Shown: positions 36,502 to 62,439 of the stretch, piece after piece
Layout of the letters: each line of letters begins with the position of its first letter
How positions within the stretch are numbered: the first letter of the stretch is position 1
From: an uncultured Candidatus Saccharibacteria bacterium
GTDB taxonomy: Bacteria > Patescibacteriota > Minisyncoccia > Phycocordibacterales > PALSA-1337
Assembly (NCBI GenBank): GCA_964495685.1
Contig: CAZBVQ010000001.1
Span: forward strand, 39,477 to 103,476
Direction: 5' to 3'
DNA length: 64,000 nucleotides
Notes under the pieces: model-generated
The model's database searches: none
What the model was told of the DNA's origin: nothing
Seen by the model: only the letters and a program-made list of their open reading frames with translations
Position numbers and translations under genes: made by a program

Positions 36502-37458
36502 ATGTCGCACAATATTCGTGACCTCAAACAGCAATTTCTAGAATACGTCGAGATCGAGAAGGGTCGTTCGGTCAAGACGGTACGCAACTACGACTTTTTT
36601 ATCAGCAAATTCCTCACGTATGGCAAAATAAAGACCGCCGAAGACATTACAGCGGGTGTCGTCCGAGAATTTCGTCTCTGGCTCAATCGTCAGCCAGGAT
36701 GGAAAAGCAAGAATGAGGCTCGTACACTCAAGAAAAACACCCAAAATTACCACCTGATTGCCCTACGCTCATTCCTCAAGTTCCTTGCCAAACGCGGCAT
36801 CAAGTCTCTCTCCCCTGACATGATCGAGCTCGCCAAAGTCGGCCATAGACAGATTGATGTTATCACCCACGACGAGCTTCGACGCCTCATGAATGCCCCT
36901 GATGACGGTTCGCTCACTGCCTTGCGAGACAAAGCCATTCTTGAGCTACTCTTCTCCACTGGTCTACGTGTTGCCGAGCTCTGTTCCCTTTCGCGAGACA
37001 TTGACCTCACTGCCGAAGAATTCACGGTCCGTGGCAAGGGCGACAAAGTGCGTCTGGTATTCCTGTCCCCCGAGGCGCGAACGGCTGTGAAGAGATATCT
37101 TGATGCCAGGAAAGACATGGGAGATGCCCTATTCGTGGAAATAAGTGAGCGTGCCCTCAAGGCCAGCTCTTCTGGCAAGAAAAAAGACGGCAAAGACGCA
37201 GGCGATACTCCCCTGACGACCAGGTCTGTACAGCGGATCATCAAGAAATACGCAATCAAAGCCGGTATTCCCAAGCGTGTCACTCCTCATATGATCAGAC
37301 ACTGCTTCGCTACCGATCTTCTCAGTAATGGTGCAGATATACGCTCGGTGCAGATGTTGCTTGGTCATGCAGATATTAGTACTACTCAGATATATACTCA
37401 CGTGACCGATTCCCAGCTCAAGCAGGTGTACAAACAATTTCACGGGAAGAAGAGATAG
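36502..37458 (+). CDS. tyrosine site-specific recombinase, XerC/XerD family
   Basis: N-terminal SAM-like core-binding domain. C-terminal catalytic motifs (R...HxxR...Y: HMIRHCFATDLL, LLGHADISTTQIYTHV). Confidence 0.85.
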   Translation: MSHNIRDLKQQFLEYVEIEKGRSVKTVRNYDFFISKFLTYGKIKTAEDITAGVVREFRLWLNRQPGWKSKNEARTLKKNTQNYHLIALRSFLKFLAKRGIKSLSPDMIELAKVGHRQIDVITHDELRRLMNAPDDGSLTALRDKAILELLFSTGLRVAELCSLSRDIDLTAEEFTVRGKGDKVRLVFLSPEARTAVKRYLDARKDMGDALFVEISERALKASSSGKKKDGKDAGDTPLTTRSVQRIIKKYAIKAGIPKRVTPHMIRHCFATDLLSNGADIRSVQMLLGHADISTTQIYTHVTDSQLKQVYKQFHGKKR

Positions 37459-42298: not shown

Positions 42299-42317
42299 GT
42301 TTCTGGACATACTATAG

Positions 42318-43016
42318 TTGAACAGATATACTTTGTTCGATATGTATTCTAGGAATTATAAAAATAAAGCCATATCGCTTCGCGAACAGGGGTACTCTCT
42401 TGGATATATTGCCGAGAAGCTTGATGTTGCAAAAAGTACGCTAAGTGTATGGCTAAAGAGCGTTACATTTTTTCCGAATGAAATAACAAGGAACTCCGTA
42501 GCTCATGGTCAAAAACAGGCAGTTGCGACAAAACGTTCTGACAAAGCCATTTCTCTTGCCCGCGCGTATAAATACGCACAAGAATCAGTTGGCGTCTTGT
42601 CAAAAAGAGATAGGTTTCTCGTTGGAATTGGGATTTATATCGGGGAAGGTGGTAGGGCCTTTAATAGTACTAGAATAGCAAATTCTGATCCGCGTACCAT
42701 TGGGTTTTGCCTGTCGTGGCTCAAAGAATGTTTTGGTTTGATGAATAAAAATATTCGTATTAGAGTTCATATATACCCTGACAATAATGAGAAAAGAGTC
42801 TTAACATATTGGATGAAAGAACTTGGTTTGGGGAAGAAATCATTTTATCCCTGTTTTATTGATAGGAGAGTCGGTAAGAGATCGAAAAAAGTGAATGTAT
42901 TACCGTACGGGACTGCCCATATGAGTGTGGTCAGCAATGGTAACAAAGATTTTGGTGTCTTGTTACATCGTAAAATCCTTGCTACGATTGACCGTATTCT
43001 CACTATGCGGGGTTAG
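42318..43016 (+). CDS. HTH-domain protein with possible LAGLIDADG-like endonuclease fold
   Basis: N-terminal HTH (GYSLGYIAEKLDVAKSTLSVWLK). Central FLVGIGIYIGEGG weakly resembles a LAGLIDADG motif. The last 10 nt overlap the 5' end of tRNA-Gly(UCC). Confidence 0.4.
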   Translation: MNRYTLFDMYSRNYKNKAISLREQGYSLGYIAEKLDVAKSTLSVWLKSVTFFPNEITRNSVAHGQKQAVATKRSDKAISLARAYKYAQESVGVLSKRDRFLVGIGIYIGEGGRAFNSTRIANSDPRTIGFCLSWLKECFGLMNKNIRIRVHIYPDNNEKRVLTYWMKELGLGKKSFYPCFIDRRVGKRSKKVNVLPYGTAHMSVVSNGNKDFGVLLHRKILATIDRILTMRG

Positions 43017-43077
43017 TTTAACGGTAAAATTTCTGTTTTCCAAACAGAAGTCGCGGGTTCGACTCCCGCACCCCGCA
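43007..43077 (+). tRNA. tRNA-Gly (anticodon UCC), CCA not encoded
   Basis: Acceptor GCGGGGT/ACCCCGC, anticodon stem-loop TCTGT-TTTCCAA-ACAGA, T-arm GCGGG-TTCGACT-CCCGC. Confidence 0.8.
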
Positions 43078-43145
43078 CAACCAAGGCCGATGCGGATGGC
43101 TCAACAAGCGCGCTATTTCAGTCCGACACTCGGATCCGTCAAAAA

Positions 43146-43670
43146 ATGAAAAAAGAAGTATATAAAGATAGAAAATACGAGATCGTTTCATACGACCCTG
43201 AGTGGCCGAGACGATTTGAATTGTACGCTGACAAAGTCAGGAAAATCTTTGGTCCTGAAGTTCAAATAGAACACATTGGCAGCACTTCTGTGCCCGGCAT
43301 GTCTGGAAAACCATGTATTGATGTTCTCGTTGTGGTTGATATGAAAATCGTTGAGTCTCACACTCAAGAACTCTTAGCTGCTGGATTCGTTGATGCTGGT
43401 GAGTTTGTAATGAAAGGATCACACCTCTTTCGAGTTATGAATGGTCATGAGCCTATTGTTAACATTCATTTCTTTCCTCCTGGTCACTCGCATGTAGTTC
43501 AAATGATTGCAGTTAGGGACTTTCTTCGCTCGCATCCAGAGGAAGTCACTACGTACTCAAAAATTAAGGATGAATTATTCGTGAAATTTGCAGATGATTA
43601 TTCGGCTTATAGAGAAAATAAGGATAAGTATATGCATGAGCTTATTAAAAGGGCACTAGCTAAATCCTGA
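43146..43670 (+). CDS. GrpB/UPF0157 family nucleotidyltransferase-fold protein
   Basis: IEHIGSTSVPGMSGKPCIDVLVVV matches the GrpB signature. Confidence 0.7.
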   Translation: MKKEVYKDRKYEIVSYDPEWPRRFELYADKVRKIFGPEVQIEHIGSTSVPGMSGKPCIDVLVVVDMKIVESHTQELLAAGFVDAGEFVMKGSHLFRVMNGHEPIVNIHFFPPGHSHVVQMIAVRDFLRSHPEEVTTYSKIKDELFVKFADDYSAYRENKDKYMHELIKRALAKS

Positions 43671-43680
43671 TATAAAAAGA

Positions 43681-43900
43681 AACACCCCGAAGCCGAAGCT
43701 AAGGGGTGGAGCACTTTAATAACGTCATTGCTCGGGACCTGTCTACTGACGCAATGGAACCATGTGGTTCCGCCAACCGGTGAACAATGCATCGGGTGGT
43801 ACCTATCCCGATGGGACTGGAGTCATCATTCCCTTTGGCCAATCCGTCCTTGGGGAACTATCGCTGTCAAACAGTTAGGGTGCCGCGAACCGCAATCCCC
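43681..43900. other. GC-rich structured noncoding segment (candidate ncRNA or recombinase attachment region)
   Basis: GC content well above neighbours. No ORF. Terminal GGGG...CCCC complementarity. Internal hairpins GGAACC-ATGT-GGTTCC and CATCGGG-N10-CCCGATG. Sits between grpB and the 3' end of the serine recombinase. Confidence 0.25.
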
Positions 43901-44030
43901 AACCAAATCAATGTACTTTATTACTATACAAGTATAGCATGCCCATAAAATTTGTCAAGCAAAATTTCATTTTGTCCAGTATTATATAAATAATATGGCT
44001 CTGTTAGGCCATAAATGATAAGAATTAATA

Positions 44031-45386
44031 TTAATTGGTAATCGTGGATTTTTCTGAACATACATTTTCTAGTAGATTCAGTTTTTTATCCTTTAGAATT
44101 AGCCTACTCTTGATACACGACAACACCTCTCGTTTCTCTGTGAGCGTCCCATGCTGAAGTATGTACTTCGCAAAGGTCTTTATGTTGATGTCGTGTTGGT
44201 TCTTGATCTGGGGCAACTTTTTTTTGAGCACTCCAGTTTGGAATAGGGCATAGCGTGCCACTTCTTTCTCGAGTTTTTGCCTCAGTTCACTTTTGTCGAG
44301 GCTCATGCTGTCTATTATCTTCAGTGTCTCATCGATCAGTATCTGTTCGCTCACTTGATCATTATTACAATCGAGGTTTCGCAATTTTGTACATCGATAG
44401 AATACGTACGCTTTTACGCTTCCGTCTTTCAGTTCTTTAACCTTTTCTTCAGCTGTCACACCGGATTTGCAATAACCGCATTCAAGCATCCGAGTAAAGG
44501 CGAATTCTCGACCGTAAGCCTTTTTCTTTTCACCTAGAATTTTATCTTGCACGATATCGAATAGATCCTTCGTAATAATTGGTTCATGCTTACCTTGATA
44601 CCATTCTCCGCTTCCTCTTGGGTATTCAAATACGCCGTAATAGAAAGGCATTCTCAAAAGCCGGTAGATATTTCCGAGAGCTAAAGCCTTTCCGGTTCTC
44701 GTTGTGAAGCCGGAATCTTTGAGCCATCTGTAAATTTGTCTGCCAGACTGATTTTCATTCGCCACTTTCTCAAACATCTTCTTAATAATTGGTGCTCGAA
44801 TCGGATCTACGATGACTTGGCACTTTTCGTCCTTGTTTTTACTGTTCAGATAGCCAGTTAAGGCTAAGGAAGGTTTCAATCCCATCGCAGCCCTGGCTCT
44901 CAAGCCACGTCTTACGTTGATTACCTTGTTGTCGTTCTCGAGTTTTGCCTGACTTCCTAGGATCATCAGCAAGAACTTCTCATTTGGATTGTTCGTGAAT
45001 TTTTGACCGCCATAGGTTCTGATTTCTTTGAGCAACCCTTGATCCATGAGATCAACTATTTTGCCTAAGTCACCAGCATTTCGACTTATTCGATCCGGTG
45101 CCCATGTCAGAATGCCATCGAATCTACTTTTCTTTATATCCTCGATTATTTCGTTGAAGACCGGACGTTGCCCAGCTTCTTTGGCTGAATGAGACTCGCG
45201 TTTTGTAATAACGATCTCAAGATTTTCGGTAACCGCCATTTTTTGCATTTCAACTATCTGGGAATCGATAGAGAGCACCTGCCGATCCTCCTGCTCGGTG
45301 CTTTTACGAGCATACAAGCAGTATCTAACCTTTACTGGGCTTGATGGTTTGGCCGGAAGCCCGACTGGCCTTTGGGTAGTTTCCAT
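44031..45386 (-). CDS. large serine recombinase (resolvase/integrase family)
   Basis: N-terminal resolvase catalytic domain (YCLYARKSTEQEDRQVLSIDSQ with the nucleophile Ser), recombinase domain, Cys-containing zinc-ribbon region (CGYC...C..C) and coiled-coil C-terminus. 451 aa. Confidence 0.85.
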   Translation of the reverse strand: METTQRPVGLPAKPSSPVKVRYCLYARKSTEQEDRQVLSIDSQIVEMQKMAVTENLEIVITKRESHSAKEAGQRPVFNEIIEDIKKSRFDGILTWAPDRISRNAGDLGKIVDLMDQGLLKEIRTYGGQKFTNNPNEKFLLMILGSQAKLENDNKVINVRRGLRARAAMGLKPSLALTGYLNSKNKDEKCQVIVDPIRAPIIKKMFEKVANENQSGRQIYRWLKDSGFTTRTGKALALGNIYRLLRMPFYYGVFEYPRGSGEWYQGKHEPIITKDLFDIVQDKILGEKKKAYGREFAFTRMLECGYCKSGVTAEEKVKELKDGSVKAYVFYRCTKLRNLDCNNDQVSEQILIDETLKIIDSMSLDKSELRQKLEKEVARYALFQTGVLKKKLPQIKNQHDINIKTFAKYILQHGTLTEKREVLSCIKSRLILKDKKLNLLENVCSEKSTITN

Positions 45387-45535
45387 ACCTCAAGGAATGA
45401 CAGAACCCATCCGATGAGTCTAGGATCCGTCGGAGTTGATAAATTGTAGGTAACTCTCCTCGAGAATTATGCAGAAATGATGAAATATGCTTATACTTAT
45501 AGTATTAATCGTCAAAAATTAATCTTTTTAATAAC

Positions 45536-46648
45536 ATGAAGAAAACAATCTGGTGGATAGTCGGCATCGTTGTTGCAATCCTTATAATTATTGCCATTTC
45601 TCGTGGGTCATCGACTACAAGTTCAGGTCCCATTAAGATAGGTTTTATTGGACCTTTGACTGGCGATACTTCTTCGCTCGGCCAAGCTAGCAAGTCGGCT
45701 GTTGAGATTGCGATTGATGAGCTAAATCAATCAGGTGGGGTTAATGGTCGCCAGCTTCAGGTTATTTATGAAGACGGCAAATGTTTGGCAGCTTCTGGTT
45801 TAAGTGCAGGACAAAAACTCATCAGTTATGACAAGGTAACTGCTATTATTGGCGGGCTTTGCACTTCGGAGACAGCCTCTTTTGTAAAAATTGCTAGTGA
45901 TGCAAAAGTCCCTGTGATCTCATATTGTTCGTCTGCACCGTCTTTGAGCCAATCAGGTCCATATTTCTTTAGGACTTATCCTTCAGATTCATACCAAGGC
46001 AAATTTGCAGCAGAGTACGCATACAACACTCTTGGCGCGAGAAATGTTGCCGTTCTTTACCATATATCTGACTGGGGAACTGGCATCAAAGATGTGTTCA
46101 CAAAAAGATTCACCGAACTCGGTGGGAAAATTGTTGATGTGGAGGGAACCCTTCAGGAATCGCGTGACTATAAAACTCAGCTAACGAAAGTAAAGGCTGC
46201 CAATCCTGATTATATCTACATGCCAATGTATATTGAGGGTTCATTGATTGCAGTACAACAGGCGCAGGATCTTGGAATAAAGACAAAACTTCTCGGTACG
46301 GATACATGGAGTGATCCTAAGTTTGTTAGCGCAGTGAATAAAAATGCGGATATCTTATATGCTGGTTCCACGGGAAATTCTGATGAAGCGTTCCAAAATA
46401 AGTATATAGCCAAGACCGGTGAGAAACAGGTTCCTATATGTGCTCCTCAGGCTTATGATGCTGTGACGGCGTTAGCTTCTGCAATGAAAGAGGTTGGTAC
46501 CGATGCTACTAAGCTTCCTGATGCGATTCGCAGCCAGAATTTCCAAGGTGTAACAGGTCAAGTATCTTTTGATGCTAATGGAGACATCACTCATGTTGGT
46601 TATGTAGTGAAAAGAGTTAAGGATGGGCAAGTAATTCAGATACAGTAG
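45536..46648 (+). CDS. ABC transporter substrate-binding protein, LivJ/Peripla_BP_6 family, paralog 1 (N-terminal TM anchor)
   Basis: TM helix, then IKIGFIGPLTGDTSSLGQ and a type I periplasmic-binding fold. Confidence 0.8.
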   Translation: MKKTIWWIVGIVVAILIIIAISRGSSTTSSGPIKIGFIGPLTGDTSSLGQASKSAVEIAIDELNQSGGVNGRQLQVIYEDGKCLAASGLSAGQKLISYDKVTAIIGGLCTSETASFVKIASDAKVPVISYCSSAPSLSQSGPYFFRTYPSDSYQGKFAAEYAYNTLGARNVAVLYHISDWGTGIKDVFTKRFTELGGKIVDVEGTLQESRDYKTQLTKVKAANPDYIYMPMYIEGSLIAVQQAQDLGIKTKLLGTDTWSDPKFVSAVNKNADILYAGSTGNSDEAFQNKYIAKTGEKQVPICAPQAYDAVTALASAMKEVGTDATKLPDAIRSQNFQGVTGQVSFDANGDITHVGYVVKRVKDGQVIQIQ

Positions 46649-46651
46649 CAA

Positions 46652-47443
46652 TTACACCTTCGCCTGCTTCCAGGCAATCTCAAAAATCATCCTCATCATT
46701 CCGTGAATAGTGTCGTCCTCGATGATGATACCGATGACATTGTCTTTGGTTAGTTTTGTTATGGAGACTTTGTTTTGTCCGTAAATGGTCAGTTCTGCTT
46801 CATAAGGGAAGTCTTCTTTGGGCACAAAGCGCATAATTGGCCATAGATCTTTGCGGATCCCCGAAAAAACATCCTTGTCGTATACTCTATCTTCTGCCGT
46901 ATCAGGAAGAATCCCGCGGGTCGTGATACCCAGCCGTTCTTTACCTTTGATAAAATCGCGAAGATCGCGCTTTGGCATATAATCCTTGAATAATTTTGCA
47001 TTAGAAAATGCAAGCATCTCATATTTCTTTGGCTCGGATATCATATCGACACAAATTTTCTTGACAGCATCTGGACCTTCGAAAAATCGTATCTTTGGCG
47101 CTTTGTCGAAAGCAGAAAATATTTTGCGCAATTCAGGCACGATCTTTTCTATGTTTTCGAGTTGGTCTTCGGCCATACGTATTCTAGTCTTGCCGTAGTG
47201 AACGAGTTTCTCAGGGCTCTCGGGTTGGTAGAAGACTTTATTTCTCTTCTTAATCTCATTAGCCAGTCCTTTAACTGAAAGCTCAAGAAGTATCCTATAG
47301 GTCGTGCTTCTTTTGATTCTTGCATGATCAGCTATTTTGGATGGAAAGCCTCCACCAAGTTCCAAGAGGGCACTGTATACGGCGGCCTCCTTGTCGGTTA
47401 ATCCGCTCCTACCCAATACCGTACTTAAAGTTGTGTTGTTCAT
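46652..47443 (-). CDS. TrmB-family transcriptional regulator, paralog 1
   Basis: N-terminal wHTH (LGRSGLTDKEAAVYSALLELGGGFPSKIADHARIKRSTTYRILLELSVKGL). About 264 aa from the internal ATG at 47443. Confidence 0.7.
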   Translation of the reverse strand: MNNTTLSTVLGRSGLTDKEAAVYSALLELGGGFPSKIADHARIKRSTTYRILLELSVKGLANEIKKRNKVFYQPESPEKLVHYGKTRIRMAEDQLENIEKIVPELRKIFSAFDKAPKIRFFEGPDAVKKICVDMISEPKKYEMLAFSNAKLFKDYMPKRDLRDFIKGKERLGITTRGILPDTAEDRVYDKDVFSGIRKDLWPIMRFVPKEDFPYEAELTIYGQNKVSITKLTKDNVIGIIIEDDTIHGMMRMIFEIAWKQAKV

Positions 47444-47611
47444 GCGTTTAGCATACAGGAAACAGTGAAATTTGTCCATCCGAACGGACAGAATTGAATG
47501 AGTGATAAATACGTGCCTATATTTAGCCATTTTCCAAGATACCACATTTACAACGCGACACAAGCATTGCGTAATATACTATAATTTTGGCATTAGTAAT
47601 TAATAAAAATT

Positions 47612-48709
47612 ATGAACAAAAAATTAATTTGGATCATTGTCGGGGTCATAGTGTTAGTTGCAGTAGTCTTGGGCGTCACATTATCTGGTGGCTCCAAGCA
47701 ACCGGCAGAGAGGCAGACTGTTAAGATCGGCCTTGCATTGCCTCTAACAGGAGGTGCTGCGTTCCTTGGGGAATCGGCTAGAAACGCTGCGCAAATGGCG
47801 CTAGCTGACGCTGGTCAGACTAAGTACGATTATTCATTGGACATCGAAGACGATGCTTTCAATCCAGCAAAGACTGCGACTGTTGTAAGCAAATTCGTGA
47901 ACATAGATAAAGTGTCCGCAATTGTCACGTTTGGATCAGCGACAAGTAATGCCGCCGCTCCTATAAACGAAAATGCCGAAGTACCTAGATTTGGACTTGC
48001 TTCAGATCCCACGTCCGCTGTTGGTGATTACAACTTTATTCACTGGACGCCTCCTTTCAAAGAGGGACAGTTATCAGTTGAAGAGATGGTAAAGAGAGGA
48101 TACAAAACGATTTCTATCGTTGATACCAATCACTCTGGGACGCTCGCAGTCACAAAACCGGTTAGGGAAGCATTGGCAAATACAAATATAAAGATATTAT
48201 CGGATGATCTTACCAATGTTGGTGATAAGGATTTCAGAACGATAGTCACGAAAATCAAAGCCTTAAAGCCCGATATCGTTCTCGTGGAAATGTTTTCGCC
48301 TGAGATCGAGATCTTCGCAAAACAAATGAAAGAGCTTGGTGTGAAAACGCCGATGACTAGCGTCGAGACATTCGAATGGAGTAACGATCCGTCGTTATTC
48401 GAAGGAATGTGGTTTATTTCCGACGTTAGGGTTGATCAGAGTTTCTCTGACAAATATAAGGCAAGATTTGGTGATACTCCGAAGCCTGGAGCAACTTATG
48501 TCTACGATCTTGTATCTCTATTCATTCGAACTCAGGAACAATCAAATAGTAAACTGACTCCCACAGAGATGAGGGATGCGATCATAAAGACCGGGTATGA
48601 TGATTCACCAATCTTCGGAAAAATCGCGATTGATAAAGATGGATTCTTCATTACTGAGGCCTCTGTAAAGATGATAAAGGACGGCAAGGCGGTGCTGATT
48701 CCAAACTAA
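47612..48709 (+). CDS. ABC transporter substrate-binding protein, LivJ/Peripla_BP_6 family, paralog 2
   Basis: TM anchor plus VKIGLALPLTGGAAFLGE. 365 aa. Confidence 0.8.
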   Translation: MNKKLIWIIVGVIVLVAVVLGVTLSGGSKQPAERQTVKIGLALPLTGGAAFLGESARNAAQMALADAGQTKYDYSLDIEDDAFNPAKTATVVSKFVNIDKVSAIVTFGSATSNAAAPINENAEVPRFGLASDPTSAVGDYNFIHWTPPFKEGQLSVEEMVKRGYKTISIVDTNHSGTLAVTKPVREALANTNIKILSDDLTNVGDKDFRTIVTKIKALKPDIVLVEMFSPEIEIFAKQMKELGVKTPMTSVETFEWSNDPSLFEGMWFISDVRVDQSFSDKYKARFGDTPKPGATYVYDLVSLFIRTQEQSNSKLTPTEMRDAIIKTGYDDSPIFGKIAIDKDGFFITEASVKMIKDGKAVLIPN

Positions 48710-48726
48710 ATCGTTACTTACTTCAA

Positions 48727-48758
48727 ACAAAAATCGCTCTACAGAGAGCGATTTTTGT
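48727..48758 (+). terminator. intrinsic terminator (AAAAATCGCTCT-ACAG-AGAGCGATTTTTGTTG)
   Basis: Perfect stem with a flanking T-run after SBP paralog 2. Confidence 0.55.
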
Positions 48759-48773
48759 TGTAAACTGATACTC

Positions 48774-49640
48774 GTGGATATACTTCCTCAACTCATTCTG
48801 AATAGCATTATTGCCGGAGCGATCTACGCCATGATCGCTCTTGGTTTTAATCTCATTTATGGCACAGCGAAATTCTTTGACCTTGGCTACGGTGCTCTCA
48901 CAGCTGTTGGGGGATACTCAGTGTTCTACTTCTACAAGACGCTCGGCTTGAATATTTACGTATCGATCATTCTCGGCATGCTCATTGCTGGCATTGTCGG
49001 CTTTCTAGTCTATCGTCTGGTGTACTCGCCGCTTCGAGCCAAGAAATCTTCTGGCATGGTCCTCTTGGTCGCAGCTCTCGGAGTTCTAACTGCCATTCAA
49101 GCTATCATCGCTATTCTTTTCACGAGCCAATTTCAGACCCTTTCACAAAGCGCAGGTTCGGAGAGCGTATTCAATGTATTCGGGGGAGTGATTACGCAAA
49201 CTCAACTGATTACTCTGATTCTCGGTCTCCTCATTATGGTGGGCATAGGTCTTGTTTTCCGTTTCACATTATTCGGTAAGGCCATCAAAGCAATCGGCGA
49301 TGACGAAGAGGTTTCACAGATCGTTGGTATCAATACAAACAAGATAATTGGCTGGGTTTTCTTCATTGGTTCAGCCATTGGAGGACTGGCCGGCATTCTG
49401 ATTGGCTTTGATACGGGCATCGAGCCGACGATGGGGCTATCACTGCTTCTCAAAGGAGTCATCGCTTCGATCATCGGTGGGATCGGTAATGTTTATGGAG
49501 GAGTAATAGGGGCGTTCTTACTCGCATTCATCGAAAACTTCGGGATCTGGCAGATTTCAGGGGAATGGAAGGATGCTATCGCCTTCGCTGTGCTGATTTT
49601 ATTCTTGTTGTTCAGACCACAAGGTATTTTAAGAAGATAA
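48774..49640 (+). CDS. livH: branched-chain amino acid ABC transporter permease, LivH type
   Basis: 288 aa, 8-9 TM helices, BPD_transp_2 family pattern. Confidence 0.8.
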   Translation: MDILPQLILNSIIAGAIYAMIALGFNLIYGTAKFFDLGYGALTAVGGYSVFYFYKTLGLNIYVSIILGMLIAGIVGFLVYRLVYSPLRAKKSSGMVLLVAALGVLTAIQAIIAILFTSQFQTLSQSAGSESVFNVFGGVITQTQLITLILGLLIMVGIGLVFRFTLFGKAIKAIGDDEEVSQIVGINTNKIIGWVFFIGSAIGGLAGILIGFDTGIEPTMGLSLLLKGVIASIIGGIGNVYGGVIGAFLLAFIENFGIWQISGEWKDAIAFAVLILFLLFRPQGILRR

Positions 49641-49641
49641 T

Positions 49642-50508
49642 ATGGAATATTTAATTCACTTAGCAATTCTAATTTCAATCTATGCCATCCTAGGTCTCTC
49701 TTTGAACTTGGTTGTGGGTTTCACTGGATTACTTTCAGTAACACAAGCTGCGTTTTACGGCATTGGCGCATATGTCACAGCGATATTGCTAACAAGCTTG
49801 GGAATGAATTTCTTCCTAGCTTTAATAATTGGAATGGCAATAACTGGTGTTTGCAGTCTTTTGATCGGCTTTGTTCTTTCTAAATTTAAAGATGACTACT
49901 ACGCACTTGGCTCATTCGGCTTTAACGTAATTATTTATAGTATTTTCCTAAATTGGCAATCACTTACACGTGGTCCGCTCGGTATTCCCGGCATTTCAAG
50001 ACCTTCACTATTTGGATTCACTTTCTCTGATAACTTATCTTTTCTAATTTTATCAGTAGTCTTCTTGCTGTTGGTTTTCGGAGTCTGCCATTTCATTGCC
50101 AAGTCTTCATTCGGCCGAGTTTTGAAAGCGATTAGAGAGGATGAAGAAGCGATTTCTGTATTTGGATACCACACACTATGGTACAAGCTTGCGATTTTTG
50201 TGATTGGGGCGATGTTGGCCTCGATTGCAGGATCACTATTTGCTTCATATATAACTTTCATTGACCCATCCAGCTTCAGTCTCACGGAATCAATCTTTAT
50301 TTTGGCCATAATAATTCTCGGTGGTCTTGCTAGTAACAAGGGTTCAGTCTGGGGAGCAGTGTTTCTAATCCTCCTGCCGGAAATTTTACGCTTCGTTGGT
50401 TTTCCAGATGATATTGCAGCGCAAATGAGGCAGGTGGTTTATGGAGTGATACTAATTCTACTTATGCTTTACCGCCCTCAAGGCCTCGTCGGGGAGTACA
50501 GATTGTAA
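49642..50508 (+). CDS. livM: branched-chain amino acid ABC transporter permease, LivM type
   Basis: 288 aa polytopic; immediately follows livH. Confidence 0.8.
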   Translation: MEYLIHLAILISIYAILGLSLNLVVGFTGLLSVTQAAFYGIGAYVTAILLTSLGMNFFLALIIGMAITGVCSLLIGFVLSKFKDDYYALGSFGFNVIIYSIFLNWQSLTRGPLGIPGISRPSLFGFTFSDNLSFLILSVVFLLLVFGVCHFIAKSSFGRVLKAIREDEEAISVFGYHTLWYKLAIFVIGAMLASIAGSLFASYITFIDPSSFSLTESIFILAIIILGGLASNKGSVWGAVFLILLPEILRFVGFPDDIAAQMRQVVYGVILILLMLYRPQGLVGEYRL

Positions 50509-50518
50509 AGTCTGCGGA

Positions 50519-51607
50519 TTAGATTTTGAAGTCTCCGTTTTCATACGTAGCCATCTTCCACTCAGGAACACGGAGACCCATTCCAAGCTCGTCAAAAGCT
50601 ATTGGTCCAGTTGCGCCATCTCCCTTGAACTTCTCGATATTATTTAACCAACGACTCTTGTCTGGGTTATATGTTTCAGCCATGACCAAATATGCATCGT
50701 AACCATAACCTGCAAGCTCGCTTGGGTCAGAATTGAAGCGCTTTTTATATTTGTTTGTAAAATCAGCTGATACTTCAGAGGCTGAATACATGGCAGTACT
50801 GCCGTTCAGTATGCGGTTCATAGAAGAGCCAAGGGTGGTTTGGTAATCTGTGAAGGAAAACTGAAGGTTTAAGTCGAAGTACAAATGAGGCGCATGGTAT
50901 CCGAGCTGGTCCATTCGCGTGAGAATCTGTCCTCCAACTTTTCCATCTACAAACATAACAAGTCCCTGCGAGTTTAGCTCTTTGATTTTCAGGGCTACCG
51001 GATTGAAATCTCGCTCTGTCATCGGCACGCGCACGATGGATACCGTCCCGTTAAATTTCTTTTCAAAATCTGAAAGGAACTTCTCGTAGGCTTTTATCTG
51101 TTGCATCACGACCGTCACAGTCTTAACGCCCTGCGTATTAGCAGAATCACCAAGCATGCCTACTGCGGTCTGATCGGGGAAGATCTGCACAATATTGTCC
51201 TTATCTATTTCACTTTCAGCCCCGAGTTGTAGAACTGGAATATCTTTTTTCTGAACATCCGACTTGATAACGTCGATTGTTGGAGACGAAAGATTTATCA
51301 AAGCGTCAATTTTATCGATAGACACTTCCTTTTGATATGCCGATAATCCTTTCTTAGAATCATAACCGTCATCTTCCGCTATCAGATCCATTTTTGGAGC
51401 AGAAGGATTTTTTGATTCGAATTCTTCTTTTGCAAGGATGGCACCATTCAAGAACCCCTGACCAAGGTTATCATTTCCGACTGTTAATCCAGTTAACGGT
51501 GAAATCAAACCAATACGTACGTTCTGGTGTGAAATCCTATTTTCATAAACGATAAAGATAATAACAAGCGCAATGATTGCTAAAACAGCGTACAATATTT
51601 TTTGCAT
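50519..51607 (-). CDS. ABC transporter substrate-binding protein, LivJ/Peripla_BP_6 family, paralog 3
   Basis: When started at the ATG at 51607: TM anchor MQKILYAVLAIIALVIIFIVY, then VRIGLISPLTGL. The longer upstream reading frame is probably not translated. Confidence 0.7.
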   Translation of the reverse strand: MQKILYAVLAIIALVIIFIVYENRISHQNVRIGLISPLTGLTVGNDNLGQGFLNGAILAKEEFESKNPSAPKMDLIAEDDGYDSKKGLSAYQKEVSIDKIDALINLSSPTIDVIKSDVQKKDIPVLQLGAESEIDKDNIVQIFPDQTAVGMLGDSANTQGVKTVTVVMQQIKAYEKFLSDFEKKFNGTVSIVRVPMTERDFNPVALKIKELNSQGLVMFVDGKVGGQILTRMDQLGYHAPHLYFDLNLQFSFTDYQTTLGSSMNRILNGSTAMYSASEVSADFTNKYKKRFNSDPSELAGYGYDAYLVMAETYNPDKSRWLNNIEKFKGDGATGPIAFDELGMGLRVPEWKMATYENGDFKI

Positions 51608-51757
51608 AATATGATCATAATACTGCGCGGTCACAAATGTGTCAAATAAATGAACAATCCTTGCAATAATATAACCCGACGCTAAGCCAGATTTAAGGTA
51701 ATTTGTACAATTTGTCAGAATTATTGACAAAAGCCCTATCTCTGATATGTTTGTGAC

Positions 51758-52498
51758 ATGGATCAAATCAGTAGCTCTCTGAATAATATTGGGCTTTCGG
51801 ACAAGGAGTCCAAGATATATGTCACACTTCTCAAGCTGGGGGAAGCTACTGTGGCAGAAATTTCCACGGAAGCTGGTATAAAGAGGCCAACAGCTTACAT
51901 AATTCTTGATGAATTGAGGAAAAAGGGGATAGCGCTGAAAATACCTCATCCTAAAAAGATTGTATATCAGGCAAAACCGCCTAACGAGCTTTTTGAACGC
52001 GCTAAGGAAAACTTAAACGAATTTCAGCGATTATTGCCGAAAATTAATGCCATTTCTGTCCAAAAAAAATCTATTAAGACCCTATATTTTGAAGGCTTTC
52101 AGGGTGTAAAAGATGCATTATTTTACAGAATGAACGAATTGAAAGGTGAAACTGTCTCGGGTTTTTGGGCAAAAAACAGTGGCATTGAGAAGGATGTATT
52201 TGGTCTTCTTGATAAATGGGGAAAGCAATATTTGAAAAATAATATAACTATCGCGGGTATAACTCCTGATCACGAATCAATTCGTGATCTACGATTAAAG
52301 TATCCGGAGGAATATAAGAAAATTGTGCCCGTCTCAGAAGCAGAATATTCCTCAGATATTTCCATTGATGTGGTTAAGGATTTTGTGAGGATAATTGATC
52401 CACATAGTTTGAAAGCTATAATCATAGAAAACGATCGTGTTGCGCGTGCATTAAAACAGATATTTACAATTGTTGAGAAGAAATACGGTATCTCATGA
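51758..52498 (+). CDS. TrmB-family transcriptional regulator, paralog 2
   Basis: wHTH: IGLSDKESKIYVTLLKLGEATVAEISTEAGIKRPTAYIILDELRKKGIA. Confidence 0.7.
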   Translation: MDQISSSLNNIGLSDKESKIYVTLLKLGEATVAEISTEAGIKRPTAYIILDELRKKGIALKIPHPKKIVYQAKPPNELFERAKENLNEFQRLLPKINAISVQKKSIKTLYFEGFQGVKDALFYRMNELKGETVSGFWAKNSGIEKDVFGLLDKWGKQYLKNNITIAGITPDHESIRDLRLKYPEEYKKIVPVSEAEYSSDISIDVVKDFVRIIDPHSLKAIIIENDRVARALKQIFTIVEKKYGIS

Positions 52499-52562
52499 GT
52501 ATTTTCAGTACCATTTACTTATAGTTTACTTTGATGCTAGGCTATTTTCGGCTGAAAGGATT

Positions 52563-52796
52563 ATGAATATGAGTGAAACTGATTATAAAGCTCTATATGA
52601 GCAGGAGAAACATCTCCGAGAGGAGGCTGAACGTAAGTTCAACGAATTAAAGGAGCGCGTTAGGCCTTTAATCGAGTCGATCGATAAGATGTCAGAACCG
52701 GCTCGCCGGATCGAGGAAGTGATGCAAGAATTCGCTAAGCTTCAAAAAGCCGAATCCCAGTATCATTCCGGTCCGGAGGATCCGGCCGGTGACTAG
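52563..52796 (+). CDS. small hypothetical coiled-coil protein
   Basis: 77-aa charged helical ORF from the internal ATG. Ends at the shared terminator element. Confidence 0.25.
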   Translation: MNMSETDYKALYEQEKHLREEAERKFNELKERVRPLIESIDKMSEPARRIEEVMQEFAKLQKAESQYHSGPEDPAGD

Positions 52797-52815
52797 GCTC
52801 TGATAAGTAGAATTC

Positions 52816-52850
52816 AAAAGGCTCGGTTCAATCCCGGGCCTTTGTCATTT
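52816..52850. terminator. 35-nt bidirectional terminator element, copy 1 (AAAAGGCTCGGTTCAATCCCGGGCCTTTGTCATTT)
   Basis: 10-bp GC-rich stem with an A-run and a T-run. Overlaps the 3' end of TrmB paralog 3. Identical copy at 55299-55333. Confidence 0.6.
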
Positions 52851-53619
52851 TTGAAATACTAGATAACTGGTGTGCCAAGTCTTTGTTCTTCCACATAAAG
52901 TTAAATATTTCTCGAATGGTCTTTGCCAGATCGGCGTTCTCGATAATCACCATCTGATTGTTTCGGTTAAGAACAAGACGGACAATATTTGAGAAAGTGT
53001 CGATTGAAACAGCTGACGAATATATCGAATATGGAAGAATGTGAGTTATTCGCTTCTGAGACGTATCCGTTTTTCTGAAACTCACAAGAGATGGATGGTC
53101 GGGCACAAAAGCTCTAAGTGTTATGTTGTTATTTGCGGTAAATTCATTATATTCCTCACAAATTTGAAGCAGTTTCGCTGACATATCTTTCGCTTCTGCA
53201 TAAAAACCGACTATTTCCTTTCCAAATGCTTCCTCGATTCGATAATGCAAGGCCTCTTTGAATGCTTTTAAGCCTTCGAAATGCATCACATTCATTTTCT
53301 CAGGCGTTTTTATACTCCCGATGGATTTGAGTGACGGCAGAAGCTTCTTCGCTTCATCCATGCGATGCTCGGCATCCTGAAAAAGTATCTCTGGGGCAAC
53401 TGGTTTGTATATCCGTTTTGAAGCACGAGGAATTCTGTGCGCTGCACCTTTCTCGATGAGCTCGTCCAAGATCACATATGTCGTCGGTTTCTTCAGTCCA
53501 GATTGCTCAGATATGGCATAAGCTGAACCCTTTCCTAGTTTTAGGAGCGCTAAATACACTTGTGCCTGCTTGTCAGTGAATCCTATGTTGGTTAGCCCAG
53601 AAACTAATGTTGTATCCAT
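52828..53619 (-). CDS. TrmB-family transcriptional regulator, paralog 3
   Basis: wHTH: IGFTDKQAQVYLALLKLGKGSAYAISEQSGLKKPTTYVILDELIEKGA. Confidence 0.7.
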   Translation of the reverse strand: MDTTLVSGLTNIGFTDKQAQVYLALLKLGKGSAYAISEQSGLKKPTTYVILDELIEKGAAHRIPRASKRIYKPVAPEILFQDAEHRMDEAKKLLPSLKSIGSIKTPEKMNVMHFEGLKAFKEALHYRIEEAFGKEIVGFYAEAKDMSAKLLQICEEYNEFTANNNITLRAFVPDHPSLVSFRKTDTSQKRITHILPYSIYSSAVSIDTFSNIVRLVLNRNNQMVIIENADLAKTIREIFNFMWKNKDLAHQLSSISKMTKARD

Positions 53620-53820
53620 GCTTGCATACTACGCGGCAGTCCAAATATAGTCAATAATTTTGATGACATTAAATGGACAAAATCATTTGTACATTGAAAA
53701 ACATAGGTATATTAACGAATTTTAATGTTCAAAATTTATAATACAGATTTGCCGTTCGTAAAAAATCAAGTTATGCTTATTACCATTACTTTTTATAGAG
53801 TCCCAAAAGGGATCATTATT

Positions 53821-54909
53821 ATGAATAAAAAATATACATGGGCAATAATCATCGTGGTCATTATTGCAATAATCGGTGTCTACTTGCTTGGCACCAAGAA
53901 TCACACACAGACTAAAGGTTTCAATGTGGGGCTTATTAGCATTCTTTCGGGCGAATATGCCGCTGTCGGCGAAAACTTTAGAAATGGCGCGGTACTCGCG
54001 GAAGAACAATACAACGCCGCCCATCCGGACGCGCCTATCAAAATGACTATTGAAGATGATGGTTTTTCTGGTGGAAAAGCAGTGAGCGCGTACCAGAAAT
54101 TAGTTAACGTCGATAAGATCGATGCTCTCATTAATGTTTCAACCGCTTCAATCGATGCTATATATGATTCTGTGACGAAACTCGGGATTCCTGTCGCTCA
54201 AGGCGGTGAACAAGGCCGTGTGCCCACTGATGATAATGTCTTTGGAATATATCCTGACAGTATCGCTTCAGAAAGAGACTACGGAGTCTATATGCGTAAC
54301 AAAGGAATAACTCAAATGACTTTGGTCTATACGAAAATAGATGCCATGATCCGTTTTGTGGATGCATTTAAGGAAGGATTTCAGGGCAAGACGACTGATA
54401 TCGTCATAGATTCTGCCGAAACTGATTTTCGAACCCATGCTCTTAAGGCCACATCAGGCAATCCGAACGCTATTGGCATATTTATGTTTCCACAACAAGG
54501 TGCTCAGTTCATGAAAGAGTATCTTAGGCTCGCTAAAAACAAGCCGACGATCTTCTTCGATACGAATTTTGTCTCCGGTTATACAGACTATCAGCGAATC
54601 ATGGGAGATCTTACGGTTCTTGATGGCAGTATTGTTGGCGGAATGAAGCTTGAAGATACACAGGCTTTCAAGGATGCTTACAAGGCACGGTATGGCACGG
54701 ATGCCCCATTCTTGTCAGATATTGGTTACGATTCGTTCAATCTTCTCGTGAAGACATATTCACCAGATAAGGCGACGTGGGTTGCTAACATGAAGAATGC
54801 TGATTTTCAGGGGGTTAGTGGTGAAATAAAGTTTGGCCCTACGGGAAATCGATTGCCCGAAACTAAGATGATGATCATTCAGGGAGGGAGGATGGTGGAT
54901 TTGAAGTAA
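53821..54909 (+). CDS. ABC transporter substrate-binding protein, LivJ/Peripla_BP_6 family, paralog 4
   Basis: From the ATG at 53821: TM anchor MNKKYTWAIIIVVIIAIIGVYLL, then FNVGLISILSGEYAAVGE. Confidence 0.75.
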   Translation: MNKKYTWAIIIVVIIAIIGVYLLGTKNHTQTKGFNVGLISILSGEYAAVGENFRNGAVLAEEQYNAAHPDAPIKMTIEDDGFSGGKAVSAYQKLVNVDKIDALINVSTASIDAIYDSVTKLGIPVAQGGEQGRVPTDDNVFGIYPDSIASERDYGVYMRNKGITQMTLVYTKIDAMIRFVDAFKEGFQGKTTDIVIDSAETDFRTHALKATSGNPNAIGIFMFPQQGAQFMKEYLRLAKNKPTIFFDTNFVSGYTDYQRIMGDLTVLDGSIVGGMKLEDTQAFKDAYKARYGTDAPFLSDIGYDSFNLLVKTYSPDKATWVANMKNADFQGVSGEIKFGPTGNRLPETKMMIIQGGRMVDLK

Positions 54910-54972
54910 TCAAATTACGACACAACTACTTGACTTTAGCAAGTAGAGCTGCTATACTACTGGCAGCTCTTT

Positions 54973-55296
54973 ATGAATACAACCATGCTCCTTTGGCTCA
55001 TTGTAGCCGTTCTTATCATGTGGGGTGGCCGCTGGGTCTGGATCGCTTTCAGACTTTGGTGGATTACGTCCAAAGGCGGAGAAATGCAGTATAGGTTCAA
55101 GCTGACGCGGATTCACTATGTGATCGCGTTTCAGTCTTGGCTCTATATCAGGCGTCTCCGATTTGGTTCCTTCTGCCACAAGATTCGACTGTGGTGGTGG
55201 GAGTACTGGATCACTCGTGGATTCAAGGTGAAATACCCCTCGTACAATCCGCCAGCCAGTCCGCACGCCAAGCACCTCGAGAAGGATATTCGCTAA
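54973..55296 (+). CDS. possible small Trp-rich membrane protein (GC-rich ORF)
   Basis: One clear TM helix. Conflicts with the antisense ORF 54952..55314; local GC content is higher than the flanks. Confidence 0.2.
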   Translation: MNTTMLLWLIVAVLIMWGGRWVWIAFRLWWITSKGGEMQYRFKLTRIHYVIAFQSWLYIRRLRFGSFCHKIRLWWWEYWITRGFKVKYPSYNPPASPHAKHLEKDIR

Positions 55297-55298
55297 CA

Positions 55299-55333
55299 AA
55301 AAGGCTCGGTTCAATCCCGGGCCTTTGTCATTT
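55299..55333. terminator. 35-nt bidirectional terminator element, copy 2
   Basis: Identical to 52816-52850. Overlaps the 3' end of TrmB paralog 4 in a different reading frame. Confidence 0.6.
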
Positions 55334-62420: not shown

Positions 62421-62439
62421 GCTTTCTTAAACGGCGAAA

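What the first reader, a model, noticed from the sequence alone, without database searches (positions are those of the whole stretch)
42318..45386. Possible integration junction: an ORF overlapping the 5' end of tRNA-Gly(UCC), then grpB and a large serine recombinase
The HTH protein gene (42318-43016) ends 10 nt inside tRNA-Gly(UCC), and its central region weakly resembles a LAGLIDADG motif. Downstream lie grpB, the GC-rich segment and a 451-aa large serine recombinase whose 5' end faces the binding-protein/TrmB array.

Together with the XerC/D-like gene at 36.5 kb, four tRNAs and two structured noncoding stretches, the 36-45 kb interval looks like a recombination hotspot marking the boundary between core genome and accessory island.
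Basis: partly seen in the sequence, partly recalled or inferred. Interest (0 to 1): 0.5.

Follow-up and report, generated by a model that had tools for sequence, protein, structure and literature searches.

The report
Serine-recombinase island docked at tRNA-Gly
A glycine tRNA gene of an uncultured candidate-phyla-radiation bacterium is occupied on both sides: a 30-kb mobile island with a large serine recombinase sits exactly at its 3' end, although such enzymes were thought to avoid tRNA genes, and a homing-endonuclease-like gene is pressed against its 5' end.

Summary
The junction is real, but it lies at the 3' end of tRNA-Gly(UCC), not the 5' end.

A strain variant (L004/L006), 100% identical upstream, joins window 43084 directly to DNA 30,025 bp further on. 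The island is bounded by a 10-bp direct repeat, GCACAACCAA. It runs from 43085 past the window end and carries GrpB, a candidate ~245-nt RNA, the only recombinase (a 451-aa large serine recombinase, LSR), transporter/TrmB cassettes and restriction-modification genes.

In 21 of 22 loci, relatives of this LSR have a convergent tRNA within 3.5 kb. A conserved 25-nt arm follows that tRNA and no other. Six elements, at four tRNA species, have both ends mapped. At least 13 tRNA species are used in all.

The ORF at 42342-43016 has an HTH plus a LAGLIDADG domain. In 79 of 79 unselected homologue loci, tRNA-Gly(UCC) follows immediately. The overlap is therefore a family trait, not a scar.

The Xer gene and the other tRNAs are conserved core genome.

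Verdict: a new variant of known kinds. No activity was demonstrated, and the ~245-nt RNA is unassigned.

The parts
42304..42332 (+). Sigma-70-like promoter (TGGACA-17-TATACT) ending 9 nt before ATG 42342. It likely drives a leaderless or short-leader HTH-LAGLIDADG mRNA together with the tRNA.
   Evidence: 10 of 12 matches. The same -10 box and spacing occur in L007 and L047-L050, and -10-like boxes lie 7-25 nt upstream of the ATG in most homologue loci. A consensus match only.
42342..43016 (+). HTH-LAGLIDADG gene (224 aa): N-terminal transposase/resolvase-type HTH plus one LAGLIDADG domain with an invariant GxxxxxGEG. The stop codon lies inside the tRNA.
43007..43078 (+). tRNA-Gly(UCC), intact, with no encoded CCA. 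Its last bases are part of the recombination core.
43075..43084 (+). attL core GCACAACCAA. This is the left copy of the 10-bp direct repeat bounding the island. The right copy lies outside the window, at window-frame 73100-73109 (L131 19892-19901).
   Evidence: L004/L006 carry one copy joining the two flanks at 100% identity. L005 diverges after 43079.
43079..43103 (+). Island-side att arm (P'): AACCAAGGCCGATGCGGATGGCTCA, the member here of a motif that follows only LSR-associated tRNAs.
   Evidence: 17 motif hits, all at the LSR-convergent tRNA; none at the other ~38 tRNAs; 0 of 78 unselected tRNA-Gly(UCC) loci.
43085..64000 (.). In-window part of the 30,025-bp integrative island, which continues to window-frame 73109. 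G+C is 0.42-0.43 against 0.475 for the core.
   Evidence: Gene content.
43146..43670 (+). GrpB-family gene, cargo next to attL. It is retained beside the tRNA in decayed islands of relatives.
43672..43925 (-). Candidate ~245-nt structured RNA with its own promoter (TTGACA-16-TATACT, 43958-43931, 11 of 12 matches, extended TG) and an intrinsic terminator (43699-43684 plus a T run). It belongs to no Rfam family.
   Evidence: searches (z -2.1; no Rfam hit), 77/78/85. It is conserved in L130 at higher identity than grpB. One hairpin there, CATCGGG/CCCGATG against CACTGTG/CCCAGTG, shows two compensatory pair changes.
43994..44013 (-). Terminator-like hairpin just after the recombinase stop codon.
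   Evidence: Conserved in L127.
44031..45386 (-). Large serine recombinase (451 aa), the only recombinase in the island. The catalytic YARKS and DRISR motifs are intact.
   Evidence: CcrB-like, 114 bits; phrog_95 integrase, 1e-61; aligned to solved LSR catalytic domains.
45396..45454 (-). Conserved block upstream of the recombinase ATG (AGTTAYCAAC..CTAGACTCC..GGGTTGCGTCATC). It contains a P'-like half-site and is probably a promoter/operator, not the island end.
   Evidence: Conserved in 18 loci. The end-of-element reading was rejected.
45536..63928 (.). Island cargo: alternating Peripla_BP_6 binding-protein and TrmB regulator genes, two LivHM-type permeases and two ABC ATPases.
36502..37458 (+). 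Xer-type tyrosine recombinase. Conserved core gene, not part of the island.
   Evidence: XerA-type model passes its cutoff; same neighbours, S15 and ExoIII, in L007-L011.

Best explanation
tRNA-Gly(UCC) at 43007-43078 is the chromosomal attachment site of a 30,025-bp integrative island, spanning 43085 to window-frame 73109.

The island's only recombinase is the large serine recombinase (LSR) at 44031-45386. It belongs to a clade from candidate-phyla-radiation (CPR) bacteria whose elements sit at the 3' ends of tRNA genes.

Proposed mechanism:
- An LSR dimer binds an element site of the form TCCG-N3-CG-N4-TGG / 7-nt spacer / CCA-N4-CG-N3-CGGA.
- A second dimer binds a chromosomal site whose left half is the T-arm and acceptor 3' strand of the tRNA gene.
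- Strand exchange occurs at a dinucleotide at or next to the discriminator base, within GCACA (43075-43079).
- The mature tRNA sequence stays intact. Only its trailer and terminator are displaced to the far end of the island.

Integration gives attL (tRNA plus the P' arm, 43079-43103) and attR (GTCCGAGACGTTAGTGGG plus GCACAACCAA). Excision regenerates the empty site seen in strains L004/L006.

Separately, the gene at 42342-43016 is an HTH-LAGLIDADG protein whose family always sits between a promoter and the 5' end of tRNA-Gly(UCC). It is most likely a free-standing homing-endonuclease-type selfish gene. It would be transcribed with the tRNA and released from it by RNase P.

Shown: island limits, direct repeat, empty site, conserved arms, the tRNA association, and the fold and linkage of the LAGLIDADG gene.

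Inferred: that the LSR catalyses the event, the exact crossover position, T-loop recognition, endonuclease activity and co-transcription.
For: Empty site and island ends:
- L004/L006, two independent assemblies, equal window 41737-43084 and L131 19892-20720 at 100% identity, with a 10-nt overlap.
- The occupied form appears in three independent assemblies.
- No other integrase is present among the island genes.

The LSR:
- It has the Resolvase and Recombinase domains and aligned catalytic motifs.

Association with tRNAs:
- 21 of 22 LSR loci have a convergent tRNA within 3.5 kb of the stop codon. The background probability is 0.145, giving a binomial P of 5e-17.
- The 25-nt motif follows exactly and only that tRNA.
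- It is absent from 78 unselected tRNA-Gly(UCC) loci.
- More distant LSRs (57-60% identity, plus one partial match) have different tRNA-adjacent motifs.

Far ends:
- Six elements have a mapped far end reading CGTCCGAGAC-N6-7-GGG-GCAC.
- This arm is an inverted repeat of P', with 12 of 16 bases matching in L025/L015.
- It is followed by displaced tRNA terminators in L028 and L045.

Target range and transfer:
- Closely related LSRs sit at different tRNAs.
- A 97.6% identical element occurs in genomes that are otherwise 71% identical.
- Synteny with relatives stops at this tRNA.

LAGLIDADG gene:
- Fold and linkage.
- The stop codon lies 33 nt or less from the tRNA, or overlaps it, in 78 of 79 loci.
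- The gene is present in the window, L007 and L032, and absent at the same locus in L024, L030, L127 and L130.
Against: Against the LSR mechanism:
- No excised circle (attP junction) was found.
- No recombination directionality factor was identified.
- The zinc-ribbon domain scores below Pfam's cutoff in this protein.
- In the window the two island arms match at only 9 of 16 framework positions.
- The tRNA-side half-site does not show the same framework.
- A 10-bp repeat could in principle support recombinase-independent deletion.
- Relatives L127 and L130 keep the arm, GrpB and the RNA without the LSR. The element can therefore persist as a fixed remnant.
- L026 has no tRNA in its 2.06 kb of downstream sequence.

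Against the homing-endonuclease reading:
- No Pfam LAGLIDADG model is hit.
- No cleavage site is known.
- The gene is vertically syntenic between the window and L007.
Confidence: 0.75

Rival explanations
1. The island is real, but the LSR does not move it. The 30-kb difference between strains arose by recombinase-independent deletion or replacement at the 10-bp repeat, or through an unrecognised enzyme. The LSR would be a resolvase, an invertase or a decaying passenger.
For: No circular form or RDF was found. LSR-less remnants persist in L127 and L130. A third allele, L005, has yet another sequence after the tRNA.
Against: The same two arm sequences and the GCAC(A) core recur at both ends of six independent elements at four different tRNAs. 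The arms change together with the LSR clade. The LSR is the only recombinase in every element. The junction falls at the same nucleotide relative to the tRNA end in at least 17 loci. Chance deletion does not predict this.
Confidence: 0.1
2. The mobile unit is only the 2.4-kb segment from about 43085 to 45454 (GrpB, RNA, LSR). The conserved block upstream of the LSR would be its far end, and the transporter/TrmB array would be ordinary chromosome.
For: The block at 45396-45454 is conserved in 18 loci and contains a P'-like half-site in inverted orientation. Minimal elements elsewhere have the LSR only 77-190 nt from the tRNA.
Against: The empty allele L004/L006 joins 43084 to window-frame 73100, not to about 45455. 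Mapped far ends in other loci lie 0.6-6 kb upstream of the LSR and carry a different, shared arm. The block shared by L030 and L032 extends 900 nt beyond the upstream motif.
Confidence: 0.04
3. The HTH-LAGLIDADG protein is a domesticated DNA- or RNA-binding factor, like WhiA or an intron maturase. It would regulate or assist expression of tRNA-Gly(UCC) rather than act as a mobile endonuclease.
Against: The metal-binding Glu of the motif (E102) and the flanking glycines are invariant in 50 sequences, unlike in WhiA. The gene is missing at the same locus in four of seven related genomes that keep the tRNA, so it is dispensable. Distant homologues sit beside other tRNAs.
Confidence: 0.35
4. The ORF/tRNA overlap is itself the scar of an integration event at the 5' end of the tRNA.
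For: There is a 10-nt overlap, and the ORF has a transposase-type HTH.
Against: The same arrangement, with the same 10-nt overlap in 13 loci, recurs in 79 of 79 homologue loci. Sequence upstream of the tRNA is identical in all strain variants.
Confidence: 0.02

Closest known systems
Large serine integrases of phages and integrative elements (phiC31, Bxb1, A118, TP901-1; CcrB of SCCmec)
   Same: Resolvase, Recombinase and zinc-ribbon architecture. The catalytic Ser/Arg motifs are present. The integrase gene lies near one end of the element. The att sites have a short identical core flanked by imperfect inverted-repeat arms, and no long direct repeats.
   Different: Best NCBIfam score is 114 bits to CcrB, against a cutoff of 900, so this is a separate clade. 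The target is the 3' end of tRNA genes, and at least 13 different tRNA species are used by enzymes 70-78% identical. Known LSRs mostly target protein-coding genes. Mageeney et al. 2020 (PMC7192596) state that S-Int use of t(m)RNA genes 'has not been reported previously' and predict only 14 cases among 297.
Tycheposons and tRNA-proximal flexible islands of Prochlorococcus (Hackl et al., bioRxiv 10.1101/2020.12.28.424599)
   Same: Cargo-carrying elements integrate at the tRNA end of a variable island. Nutrient-uptake cargo is carried, strain heterogeneity is greatest next to the tRNA, and degenerate remnants and tandem units occur. A minority of those elements (27 of 937) carry an LSR.
   Different: [quoted passage not shown] Here the recombinase is a serine enzyme, the repeat is 4-10 bp, and the host is a CPR bacterium.
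Tyrosine-integrase genomic islands in tRNA/tmRNA genes (Islander/TIGER class)
   Same: A tRNA gene is used as attB with its function preserved. Presence and absence vary among strains.
   Different: The enzyme family and chemistry differ. The crossover is at the very end of the gene rather than in the anticodon or T loop, and no tRNA fragment is duplicated in the window.
LAGLIDADG homing endonucleases (I-DmoI, I-CreI, I-CeuI) and the LAGLIDADG-derived regulator WhiA
   Same: The domain has the alpha-beta-beta-alpha-beta-beta-alpha fold. The motif helix ends in a conserved acidic residue, as in the enzymes. There is an added HTH domain, as in WhiA.
   Different: It is not in an intron or intein. 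It has a single domain with an N-terminal HTH. It stands free in the 5' leader position of one specific tRNA gene. No Pfam LAGLIDADG model detects it. From my own knowledge, the free-standing GIY-YIG endonuclease SegB in the phage T4 tRNA region is a loose analogue.

Membership tests
Large serine recombinase / serine integrase | N-terminal resolvase catalytic domain with the nucleophilic Ser and conserved Arg residues | tested here: met
   PF00239, E 1.9e-20. YARKS and DRISR align with the catalytic motifs of solved LSR domains 3guv, 3g13 and 3bvp.
Large serine recombinase / serine integrase | Recombinase domain (PF07508) following the catalytic domain | tested here: met
   E 8.2e-17, 61.8 bits, above the 21.1 cutoff.
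Large serine recombinase / serine integrase | Zinc beta-ribbon domain | tested here: inconclusive
   18.2 bits against a cutoff of 25.3. CxxC...C...C is visible in the sequence. Many 70-78% identical homologues carry a precomputed PF13408 hit.
Large serine recombinase / serine integrase | att sites with a short common core flanked by imperfect inverted-repeat half-sites | tested here: met
   A 10-bp core in the window and 4-6 bp elsewhere. The framework TCCG-N3-CG-N4-TGG appears on both arms.
Large serine recombinase / serine integrase | Catalysis of attP x attB recombination | not testable with these tools
   Needs a biochemical or in vivo assay.
Integrative genetic element (genomic island) | Presence/absence between close strains with precise junctions and a regenerated empty site | tested here: met
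   L004/L006 against the window and L131, at 100% identity on both flanks.
Tycheposon | Membership of the tRNA-associated tyrosine recombinase clade | tested here: not met
   The island's only recombinase is a serine enzyme. Tycheposons with an LSR are a minority of that class.
Chromosomal Xer recombinase (gene at 36502-37458) | Conserved position and neighbours in relatives, plus a Xer-type profile match | tested here: met
   The XerA-type model scores 234 bits, above the 220 cutoff. The same S15/ExoIII neighbours occur in L007-L011.
LAGLIDADG homing endonuclease | LAGLIDADG fold | tested here: met
LAGLIDADG homing endonuclease | Conserved acidic residue at the end of the motif helix | tested here: met
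   E102 is invariant in 50 sequences and aligns with E117 of I-DmoI.
LAGLIDADG homing endonuclease | Match to a curated LAGLIDADG family model | tested here: not met
   No Pfam, NCBIfam or PHROG LAGLIDADG model appears at E <= 0.1; only HTH models do.
LAGLIDADG homing endonuclease | Site-specific DNA cleavage and homing | not testable with these tools
   Only indirect evidence: sporadic presence at one locus, with 3 relatives carrying the gene and 4 lacking it.
Any Rfam RNA family (segment 43672-43925) | Covariance-model match | tested here: not met
   No hit at the gathering threshold, none at E <= 1, and only a 15.6-bit snoRNA chance match at E <= 10.

The most novel reading that the evidence does not exclude
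This CPR clade of large serine recombinases may read the invariant architecture of tRNA genes rather than one gene's sequence. The cue would be the T-loop GGTTCGAWTCC at a fixed distance from the discriminator. Near-identical enzymes could then dock islands at many different tRNAs without damaging them. That would make them generalist tRNA-end integrases, a target logic not described for serine integrases. In the same locus, a LAGLIDADG endonuclease gene may live inside the 5' leader of pre-tRNA-Gly(UCC) and rely on RNase P to be separated from the tRNA.
Probability: 0.3. Interest if true: 0.75.

Novelty: new variant of a known kind. Interest (0 to 1): 0.62.

Why it matters
Serine integrases are major genome-engineering tools, and their natural targets are thought to be mainly protein-coding genes. 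tRNA targeting has been regarded as a hallmark of tyrosine integrases.

This clade has readable att arms, mapped ends and at least 13 tRNA targets. It would show that serine enzymes can exploit tRNA ends. It also offers a natural series of closely related enzymes with different, highly conserved targets.

For CPR bacteria, which have tiny genomes and few recognised mobile elements, the result identifies a concrete route by which transporter and defence genes are exchanged.

The strict pairing of a LAGLIDADG gene with one tRNA is a new genomic association that can be tested directly.

Tried and rejected
- Second copy of the tRNA 3' end in the window, as attR for a tyrosine-type island: none found.
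- Terminal direct or inverted repeats within 42950-45600, and an inverted copy of the left end in 43-64 kb: nothing above chance.
- The conserved block upstream of the LSR as the element end: rejected by the L004 junction.
- GrpB and the G+C-rich segment as shared LSR cargo: absent from other LSR loci. They are conserved only in the decayed islands L127-L130.
- G+C-rich segment as a known RNA: no Rfam match in three searches.
- Covariation evidence for that RNA: only three sequences are available, and the L127 alignment is doubtful. RNAalifold's covariation term is -0.53.
- Exact-match scan of JGI metagenomes for the tRNA 3' end: 0 hits.
- IMG/VR scans: no LSR relatives, and no attP junction.
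- 27 viral hits to the P' motif: all are KADAEA-type coding coincidences in high-G+C DNA.
- Alternative contexts of the first island binding-protein gene: none.
- tRNA-like remnant in the LSR upstream block: alignments are weak and inconsistent.
- Remnant of the LSR 3' end in L127: only a gapped nucleotide similarity, with no significant tblastn hit.
Full report
**What is there**

The window comes from an uncultured candidate-phyla-radiation (CPR) bacterium related to Candidatus Taylorbacteria. Identical contigs of 490-700 kb exist in public assemblies.

All features of the finding are at the stated coordinates:
- An ORF at 42318/42342-43016, whose stop codon lies 10 nt inside tRNA-Gly(UCC) at 43007-43078.
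- GrpB at 43146-43670 (Pfam E 8e-40).
- A G+C-richer gene-free stretch at 43681-43930.
- A 451-aa large serine recombinase (LSR) on the minus strand at 44031-45386. It has Resolvase (1.9e-20), Recombinase (8.2e-17) and a sub-threshold zinc-ribbon match.
- Intact catalytic YARKS and DRISR motifs in that recombinase.

**Core versus accessory**

Taylorbacteria relatives L007-L011 carry an HTH protein 64% identical to the window's. They share this gene order: PNPase, NYN, S15, Xer, ExoIII, CCA-adding enzyme, tRNA-Arg, tRNA-Gly(GCC), UPF0102, tRNA-Pro, a 147-aa gene, the HTH gene and tRNA-Gly(UCC). Nucleotide similarity stops about 20 nt after that tRNA.

The Xer gene (best models XerD/XerC/XerA), the other tRNAs and the HTH gene are therefore core. 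The 36-43 kb interval is not a recombination hotspot.

**The island and its ends**

Three short contigs from other samples are identical to the window upstream of the tRNA. L004 and L006 diverge after 43084, and L005 after 43079.

Walking along the window's own genome (L131) showed that L004 1339-2167 equals L131 19892-20720 at 100% identity. L004/L006 therefore join window 43084 to window-frame 73100.

The sequence GCACAACCAA occurs once in L004. In the window genome it occurs at both junctions: 43075-43084 and window-frame 73100-73109. The island is 30,025 bp with G+C 0.43, against 0.475 for the core.

The four att sites read as follows:
- attL: ...GGGTTCGACTCCCGCACCCC|GCACAACCAA|GGCCGATGCGGATGGCTC
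- attR: ...CACAGTCCGAGACGTTAGTGGG|GCACAACCAA|TACGCATGTTAATG
- attB: as found in L004
- attP: follows by inference from the other three

The island carries these genes:
- GrpB
- the G+C-rich RNA candidate
- the LSR
- a long series of Peripla_BP_6/TrmB cassettes with LivHM-type permeases and ABC ATPases
- a Type ISP restriction-modification enzyme
- two N6/N4 methyltransferases, one fused to ParB_N
- an ImmA/XRE pair at the far end

It has no other recombinase. L005 is a third allele. It shares only GCACA and then has a TrmB gene.

**The recombinase clade**

More than 100 protein clusters at 70-78% identity exist, all from CPR/Paceibacteria assemblies. They lie in unrelated gene neighbourhoods.

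With the LSR on the plus strand, the first downstream tRNA is on the minus strand in all 22 loci that have a downstream tRNA. It lies within 3.5 kb in 21 of them (range 77 nt to 6.1 kb). Thirteen tRNA species are involved. The binomial P is 5e-17 against the tRNA density of the same loci. L026 has no tRNA in its 2.06 kb of available downstream sequence.

A 25-nt motif, A[AT]YCAAGGYCGAYGCGGAGGCCTCA, begins directly after the discriminator-plus-one position of exactly that tRNA:
- 17 hits, all at the LSR-associated tRNA.
- None at the other ~38 tRNAs in the same loci.
- None in 78 tRNA-Gly(UCC) loci collected without reference to the LSR.

More distant LSRs (57-60% identity, plus one partial match) have a different tRNA-adjacent motif, and a second LSR subfamily has a third.

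Six elements have a recognisable far end, CGTCCGAGAC-N6-7-GGG-GCAC(A). This end has three properties:
- It repeats the last 4-6 nt of the tRNA junction.
- It is an inverted repeat of the tRNA-side arm. Both fit TCCG-N3-CG-N4-TGG around a 7-nt spacer centred on the discriminator.
- In L028 and L045 it is followed by what looks like the displaced tRNA terminator.

Element sizes are 2.6-9.4 kb elsewhere and 30 kb here. Very similar LSRs sit at different tRNAs:
- Arg-TCT and Arg-GCG
- Arg-TCT and Val-GAC
- Arg-TCT, Glu-CTC and Lys-TTT

The Gly-associated enzymes form a clade with their own arm variant. L030 and L032 share a 97.6% identical element in genomes otherwise about 71% identical.

**Decay**

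Relatives L127-L130 have tRNA-Gly(UCC), the arm, GrpB and part of the RNA region at 79-84% nucleotide identity. These are followed by HU, RNase Y and ClpP, with no LSR. The arm is intact in L130 and degenerate in L127.

L130 runs from the middle of the RNA region into a C-terminal fragment of a binding-protein gene (tblastn 3e-18). This is a deletion within a formerly larger island.

L007 keeps a degenerate arm and a far-end-like arm about 500 bp apart.

These cases fit the accretion-and-decay picture proposed for tRNA-proximal islands in Prochlorococcus.

**The G+C-rich segment**

The minus strand has three signals:
- A near-consensus promoter: TTGACA, 16 nt with TG, then TATACT, at 43958-43931 (11 of 12 matches).
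- An intrinsic terminator at 43699-43684 followed by a T run.
- A separate terminator-like hairpin for the LSR at 44013-43994.

Together these define a unit of about 245 nt. It folds modestly better than shuffled sequence (z -2.1). It has no Rfam match in three searches.

It is well conserved in L130, where one hairpin shows two compensatory pair changes (read from alignment A2). With three sequences the evidence for structure remains thin. Its function is unknown.

**The HTH-LAGLIDADG gene**

The family has more than 149 clusters and more than 476 confirmed metagenome stretches. It has no curated family beyond HTH models.

Eighty loci were retrieved through protein patterns only. In 79 of the 79 with room, tRNA-Gly(UCC) follows on the same strand. 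The stop codon overlaps the tRNA or lies 33 nt or less from it in 78 of those 79. The same 10-nt overlap occurs in 13.

A promoter-like site ends 9 nt before the ATG, and similar -10 boxes occur in homologue loci. The gene is absent from the same locus in L024, L030, L127 and L130. Distant homologues lie beside tRNA-Lys(CTT) and tRNA-Val(TAC).

The most likely reading is a free-standing homing-endonuclease-type gene in the leader position of the tRNA. A WhiA-like regulatory role is a serious rival.

**Comparison with what is known**

The LSR is a member of the large serine recombinase superfamily but of no named equivalog. Its CcrB score is 114 bits against a cutoff of 900.

Mageeney et al. 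2020 found t(m)RNA use by 44.5% of tyrosine integrases. For serine integrases they found only 14 of 297 predicted cases, called this previously unreported, and said it needs proof.

Hackl et al. found an LSR in 27 of 937 tRNA-island elements.

I found no report of an LSR clade dedicated to tRNA ends, or of a LAGLIDADG gene tied to tRNA-Gly(UCC). The one paper on Patescibacteria tRNA introns does not mention it. The library searched is incomplete, so this is not proof of novelty.

**Limits**

No activity was measured. No circular form was found. The exact crossover and the recognition of the tRNA half-site are inferences. Most comparison sequences are metagenome assemblies.

Noticed in passing
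window 38266-39026: A 761-nt gene-free stretch between the ExoIII-like and CCA-adding enzyme genes. Positions 38481-38910 are 75% identical to a relative (L007 6094-6513), about as conserved as the neighbouring genes. There is no credible Rfam match even at E <= 10. It may be an unclassified RNA or regulatory region.
   Followed up: partly
window 45536-63928: About ten alternating Peripla_BP_6 binding-protein and TrmB-regulator genes, with LivHM-type permeases and two ABC ATPases, all inside the island. The island-free allele L004 also has TrmB/binding-protein cassettes after the tRNA, so this cassette type accumulates at this locus.
   Followed up: partly
L015 11756-14284; L025 1148-1237; L037, L040, L044 tRNA trailers: Other serine-recombinase subfamilies have their own tRNA-adjacent motifs. 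TTGACAGSTAGCACGAGATG follows tRNA-Glu(TTC) and tRNA-Ser(TGA). GACCGAGNCGC follows tRNAs next to the more distant (57-60% identical) LSRs. Use of tRNA ends may be widespread among CPR serine recombinases.
   Followed up: no
L014 6358-14457: An 8-kb element at tRNA-Arg(TCT). It has an iteron-like repeat region (AATGGCA, GTAACATT, ATGAGACA) between its far end and the LSR, Fic and AEP primase-helicase cargo, and an internal second copy of the arm next to a degenerate tRNA 3' fragment. This suggests tandem units and possibly autonomous replication.
   Followed up: partly
L030 2202-4682 and L032 348-2828: A 2.5-kb block (G+C-rich noncoding DNA, an EamA-like gene and the LSR, up to the tRNA) is 97.6% identical between two genomes that are about 71% identical elsewhere. 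An IS1595-like transposase gene abuts it in L030.
   Followed up: partly
L037 13049-13672; L045 10622-11203: Distant homologues (24-26% identity) of the HTH-LAGLIDADG protein lie next to tRNA-Lys(CTT) and tRNA-Val(TAC). Subfamilies may each be tied to a different tRNA gene.
   Followed up: no
L131 10835-19480 (window-frame about 64043-72688, beyond the window): The right part of the island carries a Type ISP restriction-modification enzyme, two N6/N4 DNA methyltransferases (one fused to a ParB_N domain) and an ImmA-type peptidase/XRE repressor pair next to attR.
   Followed up: no
L005 1054-1815: A third allele in the same strain population. It is identical to the window up to 43079 (GCACA), then a TrmB-type gene on the minus strand ends right at the tRNA. 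Neither the island nor the L004 flank is present.
   Followed up: partly
L023 8503-8576 and 13354-13426: Two tRNA-Arg(TCT) genes in inverted orientation bracket the LSR element in this genome. Only the convergent one carries the arm motif.
   Followed up: no
window 43121-43141: A second half-site-like sequence (AGTCCGACACTCGGATCCGTC), resembling the far-end arm GTCCGAGAC, lies about 20 nt inside the island from the P' arm. It is conserved in L130 and in L030/L032. It may be an accessory binding site.
   Followed up: no
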